Part shown: positions 1-49,625 of the stretch, piece by piece
Numbering within the stretch: position 1 is the stretch's first letter
Layout of the letters: every line of letters begins with the position of its first letter
From: Eledone cirrhosa
Taxonomy: Eukaryota
DNA length: 64,000 bases
Direction of reading: 5' to 3'
Assembly: GCA_964016885.1 (NCBI GenBank)
Contig: CAXHJY010001451.1
Coordinates: 62,001-126,000 of the forward strand
Translations under genes and position numbers: made by a program
Notes under the pieces: model-generated
The model's input: the letters and a program-made list of their open reading frames with translations, nothing else
What the model was told of the DNA's origin: nothing
Database searches by the model: none

Positions 1-1997
1 CTCTACTTCCCTTCTCTTACTCTTTCTACCTCTCTGTAACTATTACCCTCTCTACTTCCCTATATCTCTTACTCTTTCTACCTCTCTGTAACTATTACCC
101 TCTCTACTTCCCTATATCTCTTACTCTTTCTACCTCTCTGTAACTATAAACCTCTCTATTTCCCTATATCTCTTACTCTTTCTACCTCTCTGTAACTATG
201 ACCCTCTCTAACTCAGTATATCTCTTACTACCTCTCTGTAACTATTACCCTCTCTACTTCCCTATATCTCTTACTCTTTCTCTCTCACTGTAACTATTAC
301 CCTCTCTACTTCCTTATATCTCTTACTCTTTCTCTCTCTCTCTAACTATTACCCTCTCTATTTCCCTATATCTCTTACTACCTCTCTACTTCCCTATATC
401 TCTTACTCTTTCTACCTCTCTCTAACTATTACCCTCTCTACTTCGCTATATCTCTTACTCTTTCTCTCTCACTGTAACTATTACCCTCTCTACTTCCCTA
501 TATCTCTTACTCTTTCTACCTCTCTGTAACTATAAACCTCTCTATTTCCCTATATTTCTTACTCTTTCTACCTCTCTGTAACTATTACCCTCTCTAACTC
601 AGTATATCTCTTACTACCTCTCTGTAACTATTACCCTCTCTACTTCCCTATATCTCTTACTCTTTCTCTCTCACTGTAACTATTACCCTCTCTACTTCCT
701 TATATCTCTTACTCTTTCTCTCTCTCTCTAACTATTACCCTCTCTATTTCCCTATATCTCTTACTACCTCTCTACTTCCCTATATCTCTTACTACCTCTC
801 TACAACTATTACCCTCTCTACTTCGCTATATCTCTTACTCTTTCTACCTCTCTGTAACTATTACCCTCTCTACTTCCCTATATCTTTTACTCTTTCTACC
901 TCTCTGTAACTATTACCCTCTCTATTTCCCTATATCTCTTACTACCTCTCTGTAACTATTACCCTCTCTACTTCCCTATATTTCTTACTCTTTCTCTCTC
1001 ACTGTAACTATTACCCTCTCTACTTCCTTATATCTCTTACTCTTTCTCTCTCTCTCTAACTATTACCCTCTCTATTTCCCTATATCTCTTACTCTTTCTA
1101 CCTCTCTGTAACTATTACCCGCTCTACTTCCCTATACCTCTTACTCTTTCTACCTCTCTGTAACTATTACCCTCTCTACTTCCCTATATCTCTTACTCTT
1201 TCTACCTCTCTGTAACTATTACCCTCTCTACTTCCCTATATTTTTTACTCTTTCTACCTCTCTGTAACTATTACCCTCTCTACTTCCCTATATCTCTTAC
1301 TCTTTCTACCTCTCTCTAACTATAACCCTCTCTACTTCCCAATATCTCTTACTCTTTCTACCTCTCTGTAACTATTACCCTCTCTACTTTCCTATATCTC
1401 TTACTCTTTCTACCTCTCTGTAACTATTACCCGCTCTACTTCCCTATATCTCTTACTCTTTCTACCTCTCTGTAACTATTACCCTCTCTACTTCCCTATA
1501 TCTTTTACTCTTTCTACCTCTCTGTAACTATTACCCTCTCTACTTCCCTATATCTCTTACTATTTCTACCTCTCTCTAACTATTACCCTCTCTACTTCCC
1601 TATATCTCTTACTCTTTCTACCTCTCTCTAACTATTACCCTCTCTACTTCCCAATATCTCTTACTCTTTCTACCTCTCTGTAACTATTACCCGCTCTACT
1701 TCCCTATATCTCTTACTCTTTCTACCTCTCTGTAACTATTACCCTCTCTACTTCCCTATATCTTTTACTCTTTCTACCTCTCTGTAACTATTACCCTCTC
1801 TACTTCCCTATATCTTTTACTCTTTCTACCTCTCTCTAACTATTACCCTCTCTACTTCCCTATATCTCTTACTCTTTCTACCTCTCTGTAACTATTACCC
1901 GCTCTGCTTCCCTATATCTCTTACTCTTTCTACCTCTCTCTAACTATTACCCTCTTTACTTCCCTATATCTTTTACTCTTTCTACCTCTCTGTAACT
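1..1997. repeat. 52-bp pyrimidine-rich minisatellite (~38 copies, runs off window start)
   Basis: Unit ctctctacttccctatatctcttactctttctacctctctgtaactattacc; period 52 (e.g. ttactctttc at 1141 and 1193). Confidence 0.95.
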
Positions 1998-4205
1998 CAG
2001 TCTTCTCTCCCACACACCACAACTTATCCCTCTTATACCCAGTTTCTCTCTCAACTCATCACATATCCATACCACCTCAGTCTCCTCTCCCACACACCAC
2101 AACTTATCCCTCTTATACACAGTTTCTCTCTCAACACATCACATGTCCATACCATCTCAGTCTCCTCTCCCACACACCACAACTTATCCCTCTTATACAC
2201 AGTTTCTCTCTCAACACATCACATGTCCATACCATCTCAGTCTTCTCTCCCACACATCACAACTTATCCCTCTTATACCCAGTTTCTCTCTCAACTCATC
2301 ACATATCCATACCACCTCAGTCTCCTCTCCCACACACCACAACTTATCCCTCTTATACACAGTTTCTCTCTCAACACATCACATGTCCATACCATCTCAG
2401 TCTCCTCTCCCACACACCACAACTTATCCCTCTTATACACAGTTTCTCTCTCAACACATCACATGTCCATACCATCTCAGTCTCCTCTCCCACACACCAC
2501 AACTTATCCCTCTTATACACAGTTTCTCTCTCAACACATCACATGTCCATACCATCTCAGTCTCCTCTCCCACACACCACAACTTATCCCTCTTATACAC
2601 AGTTTCTCTCTCAACACATCACATGTCCATACCACCTCAGTCTTCTCTCCCACACACTACAACTTATCCCTCTTATACACAGTTTCTCTCTCGACACATC
2701 ACATGTCCATACCATCTCAGTCTTCTCTCCCACACACCACAACTTATCCCTCTTATACACAGTTTCTCTCTCAACTCATCACATGTCCATACCATCTCAG
2801 TCTTCTCTCCCACACACCACAACTTATCCCTCTTATACCCAGTTTCTCTCTCAACACATCACATGTCCATACCATCTCAGTCTTCTCTCTCACACACTAC
2901 AACTTATCCCTCTTATACACAGTTTCTCTCTCAACTCATCACATGTCCATACCATCTCAGTCTTCTCTCCCACACACTACAACTTATCCCTCTTATACAC
3001 AGTTTCTCTCTCAACACATCACATGTCCATACCATCTCAGTCTTCTCTCCCACACACCACAACTTATCCCTCTTATACACAGTTTCTCTCTCAACACATC
3101 ACATGTCCATACCACCTCAGTCTTCTCTCCCACACACCACAACTTATCCCTCTTATACACAGTTTCTCTCTCAACACATCACATGTCCATACCATCTCAG
3201 TCTTCTCTCCCACACACCACAACTTATCCCTCTTATACCCAGTTTCTCTCTCAACTCATCACATGTCCATACCATCTCAGTCTTCTCTCCCACACACCAC
3301 AACTTATCCCTCTTATACACAGTTTCTCTCTCAACACATCACATGTCCATACCACCTCAGTCTTCTCTCCCACACACCACAACTTATCCCTCTTATACAC
3401 AGTTTCTCTCTCAACACATCACATGTCCATACCATCTCAGTCTTCTCTCCCACACACCACAACTTATTCCTCTTATATACAGTTTCTCTCTCAACTCATC
3501 ACATGTCCATACCATCTCAGTCTTCTCTCCCACACACCACAACTTATCCCTCTTATACACAGTTTCTCTCTCAACACATCACATGTCCATAGCATCTCAG
3601 TCTTCTCTCCCACACACCACAACTTATCCCTCTTATACCCAGTTTCTCTCTCAACTCATCACATGTCCATACCATCTCAGTCTTCTCTCCCACACACCAC
3701 AACTTATCCCTCTTATACACAGTTTCTCTCTCAACACATCACATGTCCATACCATCTCAGTCTTCTCTCCCACACACCACAACTTATCCCTCTTATACAC
3801 AGTTTCTCTCTCAACACATCACATGTCCATAGCATCTCAGTCTTCTCTCCCACACACCACAACTTATCCCTCTTATACACAGTTTCTCTCTCAACACATC
3901 ACATGTCCATACCATCTCAGTCTTCTCTCCCACACACTACAACTTATCCCTCTTATACAGTTTCTCTCTCAACACATCACATGTCCATACCATCTCAGTC
4001 TCCTCTCCCACACACTACAACTGATCCCTCTTATACCCAGTTTCTCTCTCAACACATCACATGTCCATACCATCTCAGTCTTCTCTCCCACACACCACAA
4101 CTTATTCCTCTTATACACAGTTTCTCTCTCAACACATCACATGTCCATACCATCTCAGCCTTCTCTTCTTCACACCACAACTTATCCCTCTTAAAGCCAG
4201 TTTCT
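1997..4205 (-). repeat. 80-bp minisatellite (~27 copies) derived from RTE-type LINE ORF C-terminal segment
   Basis: Period 80. The reverse complement of the unit translates DVLREKLCIRGISCGVWERRLRWYGHV, matching ELKERLSIRGIKCCVQERRLRWYGHV in the adjacent LINE fragment. Confidence 0.93.
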
Positions 4206-48140: not shown

Positions 48141-48199
48141 ATATATATATGTGTGTGTGTGTGTGTGCAGGAATTGCTTGTTGAGGGTATGTTACAGGT

Positions 48200-49625
48200 C
48201 TGTGTGACTAGCCGTAGCCTAAGTCTGTATCTGACAAGCGATACAGGACTTCCTGTATTTGGGAGCAAAGATTGGGAATACGGAAGATGATGTGGTTGAG
48301 AGGAAGAGCAAAGCCTGGGCGGCGTGCCACAGCTTGAGATCGGTGTGGAAGTCGGACCTTCGTAAAGACCTGAAAATCCGCCTCTTCATTGCTGTAGTGG
48401 AGTCTGTGCTGCTGTACGGGTCTGAGACTTGGACACTGACCAAGAAACTCACTCAGATGGTGGATGGGTGCTACACGAGAATGCTGAGGATGGCTCTGAA
48501 CATTAATCAGTATACACTGAGGATGAAGAACTCATAGCTGTATGGGAGCCTCCCAAAAGTCAGCTCAAAGGTGACACAGAGGAGATTGAGGTTAGCTGGA
48601 CATGCTCACCGACATCCAGAGTTGACACTGCACTCAGTGCTCCTGTGGGAGCCCCTACATGGACACACTGGAAGAGGAAGACTGAGGTTAGCTGGACATG
48701 CTCACCGACATCCAGAGTTGACACTGCACTCAGTGCTCCTGTGGGGAGCCCCTGCATGGACACACTGGAAGAGGGAGACTGAGGTTAGCTGGACATGCTC
48801 ACCGACATCCAGAGTTGACACTGCACTCAGTGCTCCTGTGGGAGCCCCTGCATGGACACACTGGAAGAGGGAGACTGAGGTTAGCTGGACATGCTCACCG
48901 ACATCCAGAGTTGACACTGCACTCAGTGCTCCTGTGGGGAGCCCCTGCATGGACACACTGGAAGAGGGAGACTGAGGTTAGCTGGACATGCTCACCGACA
49001 TCCAGAGTTGACACTGCACTCAGTGCTCCTGTGGGAGCCCCTGCATGGACACACTGGAAGAGGGAGACTGAGGTTAGCTGGACATGCTCACCGACATCCA
49101 GAGTTGACACTGCACTCAGTGCTCCTGTGGGAGCCCCTACATGGACACACTGGAAGAGGGAGACTGAGGTTAGCTGGACATGCTCACCGACATCCAGAGT
49201 TGACACTGCACTCAGTGCTCCTGTGGGAGCCCCTACATGGACACACTGGAAGAGGGAGACTGAGGTTAGCTGGACACGCTCACCGACATCCAGAGTTGAC
49301 ACTGCACTCAGTGCTCCTGTGGGAGCCCCTACATGGACACACTAGAAGAGGGAGACCGAGGATATGTATGTGTATATATATATATATATATATATATATA
49401 TATATATATATATATATATACATATATATACACAGCTCAAAAGTAACACAGGGGAGACTGAAGTTAGCTGGATATACTCACAGACATCTAGAGTTGACAC
49501 TGCACTCAGTGCTCCTGGGTGAGCCCCTACACAGACACACTAGAAGAGGGATACCAAGGTTGAACTATATGGATGCCCTAAAGAGAGACACAGGTCTCTG
49601 GAAGCGATGATTAAGGACAGAGATC
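48200..49625 (+). mobile_element. Degenerate RTE-like LINE fragment with internal 96-bp minisatellite (~8 copies, 48583-49360)
   Basis: YLGAKIGNTEDDV..KAWAAC..LKIRLFIAVVESVLLYGSETWTL..DGCYTRMLR; unit RLRLAGHAHRHPELTLHSVLLWEPLHGHTGRG; resumes RGIPRLNYMDALKRDTG after (TA)n. Confidence 0.88.

What the first reader, a model, noticed from the sequence alone, without database searches (positions are those of the whole stretch)
1997..49360. Three independent minisatellites amplified from the same C-terminal motif of three different RTE-type LINEs
Seen: the 80-bp unit (2.0-4.2 kb; 42.8-43.1 kb) encodes ..ERRLRWYGHV, the 99-bp unit (18.2-23.1 kb) encodes ..IERSQL*YYGHVVRM, and the 96-bp unit (48.6-49.4 kb) encodes RLRLAGHAHRH. 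The DNA units differ greatly, yet all cover the homologous post-RT 'RLRW-x-GH' segment known from RTE-clade ORFs. Parent LINE sequence is still attached in each case. In two arrays (18-23 kb, 42.8-43.1 kb) the repeats form the 5' end of the truncated element. Inference: this segment, a few hundred bases from the 3' end, is a hotspot for tandem amplification, for example by RT stalling and re-priming or by a local DNA structure.
Basis: partly seen in the sequence, partly recalled or inferred. Interest (0 to 1): 0.75.

Follow-up and report, generated by a model that had tools for sequence, protein, structure and literature searches.

The report
Minisatellites spreading through old LINE copies
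Three short tandem repeats cut from near the tail end of different jumping genes recur at many sites of this genome, and they likely spread by being copied into older jumping-gene copies on the small chromosomes, with distance from the element's tail rather than the shared protein motif likely deciding which piece gets repeated.

Summary
The arrays and motifs are real, and the three parents are distinct RTE-like LINE lineages (21-34% amino-acid identity). They are not local amplifications: each unit is a dispersed family (777, 484 and 728 candidate places), and one array has no parent attached. The motif hotspot is not established. Of 10 RTE-ORF array types in 1.37 Mb sampled, 4 cover the motif (post-hoc P 0.11; 0.55 within the 3' end). 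In families with short 3' UTRs the motif lies about 250 nt from the end and arrays cover it. Two long-UTR families have 0 of 19 copies arrayed there, and their UTR sequence forms arrays instead. Arrays exchange units between loci: 10 of 44 80-bp blocks mix units of two LINE subfamilies. Units are also closer between loci than their host flanks in two of three families. Arrayed copies sit on small chromosomes (8 of 9 vs 0 of 17). Likely mechanism: ectopic conversion using LINE homology. This is a new variant of a known kind (squamate SINE-derived satellites; Drosophila Rsp-like spread). The scan noted LINE-derived arrays elsewhere in this genome before.

The parts
1996..4205 (-). 80-bp minisatellite (27.6 copies) from RTE family 'F80', covering -56..+27 nt around the motif; no same-strand parent flank
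4217..4865 (+). 5'-truncated copy of a different, very abundant long-UTR RTE family ('F151'), head-to-head with the 80-bp array; it carries its own unrepeated RLRWYGH at 4556; not the array's parent
   Evidence: 96.9% to F151 reference
18070..18173 (-). decayed 3' flank of the parent LINE (family 'F99') of the 99-bp array
   Evidence: 84% over 206 nt including the last unit
18174..23119 (-). 99-bp minisatellite (50 copies), -46..+57 around the motif; member of a 123/99/65-bp series; 5' end abuts a 17-bp repeat
42561..42805 (-). 3' end of the F80 parent LINE with its short trinucleotide tail
42806..43077 (-). 80-bp minisatellite (3.4 copies); its 5' end joins a 127-bp array directly
48245..48580 (+). 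5' flank of the parent LINE (family 'F96', young, full-length ORFs of 1056 aa elsewhere)
   Evidence: 96%
48581..49361 (+). 96-bp minisatellite (8.1 copies), bounded by an imperfect direct repeat (RRLRL codons vs GRPRL codons)
49433..49682 (+). second, more diverged F96 3' fragment after a TA microsatellite
   Evidence: 85-91%
14339..14543 (+). comparison case: 49-bp array matching the 3' UTR of the long-UTR family F151

Best explanation
The three arrays are members of dispersed minisatellite families that lie inside or beside copies of three RTE-like LINE lineages, and they likely spread by non-allelic recombination or gene conversion that copies repeat units into existing LINE copies, mainly on the small chromosomes. 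Step 1 (inferred): a rare tandem duplication forms in one copy, at short microhomology, or at a real direct repeat for the 96-bp unit. Step 2 (shown for the 80-bp family, mechanism inferred): units move between loci, so arrays become mosaics of two LINE subfamilies and stay more alike than their hosts. Step 3 (shown as a pattern, cause inferred): the segments that succeed lie about 100-320 nt from the element's 3' end. This is where most 5'-truncated copies still give homology on both sides, and in short-UTR families the RLRWxGH codons happen to sit there. Step 4 (inferred): arrays expand in place, and pieces also join unrelated DNA or other arrays through 1-8-bp microhomology. Nothing here shows a function.
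For: Dispersed families. Mosaics: 10 of 44 multi-unit 80-bp blocks hold both old-type units and young-subfamily units, typed on five linked sites. Of 28 unarrayed copies, 18 are old type, 4 young, 1 recombinant and 5 untyped. Non-CpG divergence between loci, 80 family: array flanks 9.7% and 7.1%, array units 5.4%, same region in single copies 11.1%; flank exceeds unit in 22 of 29 arrays. 99 family: flanks about 20% (6 pairs), units 4.2%, 6 of 6 arrays. Array status is not clustered on a tree of host flanks (10 changes vs 11.6 shuffled). Among copies picked by their 3' flank, 8 of 9 on C25-C27 are multi-unit and 0 of 17 on C1-C24 (p 6e-6). Young RTE copies lie mostly on the large chromosomes, and 0 of 29 F96 copies picked by an upstream protein query carry the array. 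Distance rule. The 80-bp back-joint is in raw reads of a separate study (463 reads, 14 starts).
Against: The 96-bp family shows no flank-versus-unit contrast (flank exceeds unit in only 4 of 23 arrays), and one array (L264) is made of host-type units, as local origin would give. Monophyly of array hosts is not rejected (p-AU 0.073 for 80, 0.21 for 96). 13 of 20 99-bp arrays have no detectable LINE flank, so homology-guided entry is not the only route. Many arrays were found by similarity to the window's units, which lowers unit divergence; the unbiased subsets still give 4.6% vs 7.5-13.9% for the 80 family. The long-UTR test is confounded: the F151 UTR holds a ready-made 49-bp dimer, and only 7 of 81 such arrays sit directly beside an F151 ORF end. 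Recombination rates on the small chromosomes were not measured.
Confidence: 0.6

Rival explanations
1. Motif hotspot: the RLRWxGH segment itself makes the RT stall and re-prime, or forms a DNA structure, so arrays arise there again and again.
For: Four lineages have their main array over the motif; 33 of 59 motif-covering copies of those families on C25-C27 are multi-unit. Fixed-motif P 0.011. The 80-bp joint is the only short back-joint among the 15 joints shown along a 3.1-kb F80 copy (416 more not shown).
Against: 0 of 19 arrayed in F151/F205, which have the same motif. Post-hoc P 0.11 and 0.55. Six array types lie elsewhere in the ORF. Reads on F96 show back-joints away from the motif too. 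No k-mer enrichment. Unit boundaries differ in every family.
Confidence: 0.12
2. Array-bearing non-autonomous masters were retrotransposed in trans, possibly with RT template switching between RNAs, and arrays then changed length in place.
For: Array-bearing copies keep normal 3' tails and variable 5' truncations. One host clade is not rejected. Template switching could make mosaics.
Against: Host flanks are as diverged as unarrayed copies while units are not. Hosts range from old-type to mostly young-type flanks. Arrays are missing from the large chromosomes, where most young insertions lie.
Confidence: 0.15
3. Independent local slippage or unequal crossover in each copy at the same microhomology, with no exchange between loci, in a region that expands any repeat.
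For: The 96-bp seed ties for the best direct repeat in the last 675 nt of its family (13 of 18). C27 holds 346 complex arrays in 97 sampled 10-kb regions, against 0 in 4 on C1-C3. Most array families there are not ORF-derived.
Against: It cannot put a linked young-subfamily unit inside an old-type array. It predicts unit divergence like single copies (11%), not 5%. The 80- and 99-bp junctions have no outstanding seed.
Confidence: 0.13

Closest known systems
SINE-derived satellites (sSat) of squamates, PMC10702118 (abstract, sections 6 and 19 read)
   Same: Multi-locus arrays of an internal retroposon segment with element sequence left at one or both ends. One variant dominates. Units are more alike (89%) than the parent SINEs (64%). 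Biased to particular chromosome regions (subtelomeric).
   Different: Here the units come from the LINE coding region of several lineages. Mosaics of two named subfamilies show exchange between loci directly. A 3'-distance pattern is seen across families. The sections read do not report these.
Rsp-like satellite invading 1.688 clusters in the Drosophila simulans clade, PMC7403614 (passages)
   Same: A microhomology-born junction lets a repeat spread to loci that already hold an abundant homologous repeat, by interlocus conversion or eccDNA reintegration.
   Different: There the landing pads are satellite clusters on the X chromosome; here they are dispersed single LINE copies, and the repeat is part of the pad itself.
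TE-derived minisatellites in general, review PMC9659126 (passages)
   Same: Tandem repeats born inside TEs; ectopic repair between paralogues is named as a route.
   Different: The passages seen list Alu, B1, MaLR and LINE-1 sources, and the term RTE does not occur in the paper (0 occurrences).

Membership tests
RTE-clade LINE (parents) | One ORF of about 1000 aa with AP endonuclease and RT (as described in PMC1291365, passages) | tested here: met
   F151 1041 aa and F96 1056 aa, each with Exo_endo_phos and RVT_1. F80 has a near-full-length copy scoring 1235 bits on my profile. For F99 only 3' parts were seen.
RTE-clade LINE (parents) | Short 3' UTR ending in short AT-rich tandem repeats | tested here: met
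   F80, F96 and F99 end about 250-260 nt after the motif; F80 and F96 end in 3- or 4-nt repeats. F151 and F205 have the repeat tail but UTRs of about 300-370 nt.
RTE-clade LINE (parents) | Placement in the RTE clade on an RT tree with named references | not tested
   No named reference set was available; the clade label rests on structure and on recall of the motif.
Retroposon-derived multi-locus satellites (sSat-like) | Unit is a fixed internal segment of the element, with parent sequence at one or both ends | tested here: met
   30 of 38 80-bp arrays, 23 of 24 96-bp arrays and 7 of 20 99-bp arrays keep at least one flank.
Retroposon-derived multi-locus satellites (sSat-like) | Units more homogeneous across loci than parent copies | tested here: met
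   Met for 80 and 99. For 96, units 4.0% vs the same region in single copies 6.4%, but not lower than the flanks.
Retroposon-derived multi-locus satellites (sSat-like) | Subtelomeric bias | tested here: inconclusive
   A bias to small chromosomes is shown; telomere positions were not mapped.
sSat proper | Derived from a SINE | tested here: not met
   Units are LINE ORF sequence.
Motif-driven amplification hotspot | Arrays at the motif in every family that has it, beyond 3' coverage | tested here: not met
   0 of 19 in F151/F205; post-hoc P 0.11-0.55.

The most novel reading that the evidence does not exclude
Minisatellite 'homing' through LINEs: once a duplication exists about 100-320 nt from an RTE's 3' end, arrays out-compete single copies as repair templates and convert pre-existing LINE insertions one after another on the small chromosomes. 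This would be a self-reinforcing spread that needs no transposition and follows one positional rule across at least five RTE families.
Probability: 0.4. Interest if true: 0.68.

Novelty: new variant of a known kind. Interest (0 to 1): 0.46.

Why it matters
How the same satellite appears at many unlinked loci is usually argued from similarity alone. Here every array sits in a LINE copy whose subfamily can be typed, so donor and recipient can be told apart. That makes conversion versus transposition directly testable with orthologous loci. It also replaces an attractive motif-hotspot idea with a simpler positional rule. There is no evidence of a function.

Tried and rejected
Unmasked self-BLAST of the window timed out. 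A shared DNA core was rejected: the 7-mer common to the units occurs in 2 of 213 array-family representatives against 2.27 expected, and it is altered in the 65-bp units and in many 114-bp units. A general microhomology seed holds only for the 96-bp unit (the 114/139 test used a reference only about 80% identical to the true parent). Chimeras between 80-, 96- and 99-bp units at their shared 8-12-mer: none found adjacent. Host-flank trees were star-like and inconclusive. Laying reads on F96 did not list the 96-bp joint among the joints shown, so it gives no genome-wide ranking for that family. One of the four runs laid there (X13) had no reads. Low-depth matches in runs labelled as other organisms (X4, X6) were not used for dating. 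No RNA holder listed. A genome-wide count of arrayed versus single copies per chromosome was not obtained; the chromosome claim rests on 26 flank-picked copies and the sampled regions. A last block of 20 planned regions (C27 21.0-22.2 Mb) was not sampled. Seven paper searches for prior reports (listings only) showed no paper on RTE-ORF minisatellites in cephalopods. PMC13282606 has 0 occurrences of 'satellite' in its main text; its supplements were not read.
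Full report
Observation. The four arrays are at the stated places and encode the stated motifs. A profile built from two full-length ORFs of this genome and 139 of 150 database relatives places the motif at aa 965-971 of a 1041-aa ORF; RLRWFGH is its commonest form. Both full ORFs carry endonuclease and RT domains. The parents of the 80-, 96- and 99-bp units are 21-34% identical in their C-terminal protein, so they are separate lineages; I call them F80, F96 and F99. 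The claim that a parent is attached in each case fails for 1996-4205. Its neighbour at 4217-4865 is an opposite-strand copy of a fourth family, F151. The host is likely an octopod; this rests on recall and on earlier notes and was not tested.

Not local events. The window is G000:C1478 in a 3.0-Gb assembly. The units have 777, 484 and 728 candidate places, of which 40 each were scored; these lie mostly on C27, C25, C23 and unplaced contigs, at 96-100% identity for the best matches. Many arrays sit inside a LINE copy. Both flanks are present in 15 of 38 80-bp arrays and 13 of 24 96-bp arrays; for the 99-bp family 0 of 20 have both, 7 have one and 13 have none. Some loci are cut by the edge of the fetched DNA. 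The 80-bp junction is also in raw reads of a separate study (463 reads, 14 start places), so it is not an assembly artefact.

Hotspot test. I sampled 137 regions of 10 kb at fixed steps (97 on C27, chosen for array density; 20 on C25; 5 on C26; 11 on C19-C24; 4 on C1-C3). TRF gave 592 complex arrays in 213 clusters, most not from a LINE ORF. Ten array types map to RTE ORFs. Four cover the motif (80; 139/114, a fourth lineage; 123/99/65; 96/81) and six do not. With starts drawn by fragment coverage, 1.0 would cover the motif by chance. P is 0.011 for the fixed motif, 0.11 for any window, and 0.063 and 0.55 within the last 160 aa. An earlier 7-type version, before DNA-level mapping added three types, gave 0.004 and 0.036. 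All four motif-covering types recur, against 1 of 6 others (p 0.048).

Natural experiment. In the C25-C27 regions, motif-covering copies are multi-unit in 13 of 20 (F80), 10 of 26 (F96), 7 of 9 (F99) and 3 of 4 (114-like), but in 0 of 11 F151 and 0 of 8 F205 copies. F80, F96 and F99 end about 250-260 nt after the motif. F151 ends about 530 nt after it (median of alignments) and F205 about 590 nt (read from printed tails). The most common array cluster of the sample (120 arrays of 48/49, 112 and 140 bp) matches the 3' UTRs of F151 and F205, at +260 to +360 and +340 to +500. So the repeated segment lies about 100-320 nt from the 3' end in each family. Caveats: the F151 UTR already holds a 49-bp dimer, and only 7 of 81 such arrays lie directly beside an F151 ORF end, so most are probably in SINE-like elements that share the tail (inferred).

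Exchange between loci. F80 has an older and a younger subfamily. Unarrayed copies are nearly all pure (18 old, 4 young, 1 recombinant, 5 untyped of 28). In contrast, 10 of 44 multi-unit blocks hold both types, often one young unit among old ones, and 10 blocks hold recombinant units; a few blocks belong to one locus. Without CpG sites, 80-bp units differ by 5.4% between loci, their host flanks by 9.7% and 7.1%, and the same region in single copies by 11.1%. For the 99-bp family the figures are 4.2%, about 20% (6 pairs) and 9.6%. The young 96-bp family shows no flank contrast (4 of 23 arrays). It has mosaic arrays (L070, L168) and one array of host-type units (L264). Array status is not clustered on host-flank trees, but one clade is not rejected (p-AU 0.073 and 0.21).

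Chromosome bias. Of 30 F80 loci picked by the 3' flank alone, I dropped the window's own, two on unplaced contigs (one arrayed) and one lacking the unit. Of the rest, 8 of 9 on C25-C27 are multi-unit and 0 of 17 on C1-C24 (p 6e-6). The query was the flank of an arrayed copy. Young RTE copies are listed mostly on the large chromosomes, and 0 of 29 such F96 copies carry the array. Complex arrays of 3 or more copies number 346 in 97 C27 regions and 0 in 4 C1-C3 regions.

Mechanism. Shown: dispersal, mosaic arrays, homogeneity above host flanks in two families, chromosome bias, and the positional pattern. Inferred: a rare seed duplication; spread by ectopic conversion or template switching during break repair, using LINE homology on both sides; expansion in place; and occasional end-joining into unrelated DNA or other arrays. 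The 96-bp unit has a top-ranking direct-repeat seed; the others have only short microhomology. RNA- or cDNA-mediated conversion and eccDNA cannot be told apart from DNA-DNA conversion here.

Known relatives. Squamate SINE-derived satellites (PMC10702118; abstract and sections 6 and 19) share the anatomy, the dominance of one variant and the excess homogeneity. The Drosophila Rsp-like/1.688 model (PMC7403614; passages) supplies the spread mechanism. A review (PMC9659126; passages) covers TE-derived repeats without mentioning RTE. Seven searches (listings only) showed no report of this in cephalopod RTE ORFs.

Verdict. A real feature and a new variant of a known kind. The motif hotspot is unlikely; spread between LINE copies is likely. 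Interest 0.46.

Noticed in passing
window 23499-23951 (+): Exon-like open frame with Kelch repeats (Kelch_1 E 7e-7). Its 3' end and apparent splice donor recur in the 288-bp and 51-bp repeats at 24.0-26.1 kb (seen), so the arrays lie in or beside a gene.
   Followed up: partly
window 16625-17833 (+), 44640-46497 (-); 39590-40730 and 43077-44089: The same 72-bp and 127-bp units occur twice each in opposite orientation; the 72-bp family has 44 arrays in the sample.
   Followed up: partly
window 1996, 23119, 39590, 43077: Arrays of unrelated units are joined directly into chains (52/80, 99/17, 48/127, 80/127), with only 1-2 shared bases at three of the joints as read by eye.
   Followed up: partly
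window 4190-4220: The F151 fragment joins the 80-bp array through about 8 shared bases and has a 7-bp duplication at its 5' end, like a LINE 5' junction (read by eye).
   Followed up: no
L010:1122-1839; L009:1143-1944: 80-bp arrays with fold-back inversions (two halves on opposite strands; an inverted piece of the parent upstream), suggesting template switching.
   Followed up: no
L151 ORF aa 778-821: The F151 RTE ORF carries a PHD finger after the RT domain.
   Followed up: no
L189:4320-4726; L285:9259-9475: A second recurrent F96 array type (109-111 bp) upstream of the motif; its joint is also in run X1.
   Followed up: partly
L019: 80-bp array interrupted several times by a longer unit that includes downstream LINE sequence, a higher-order variant.
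   Followed up: no
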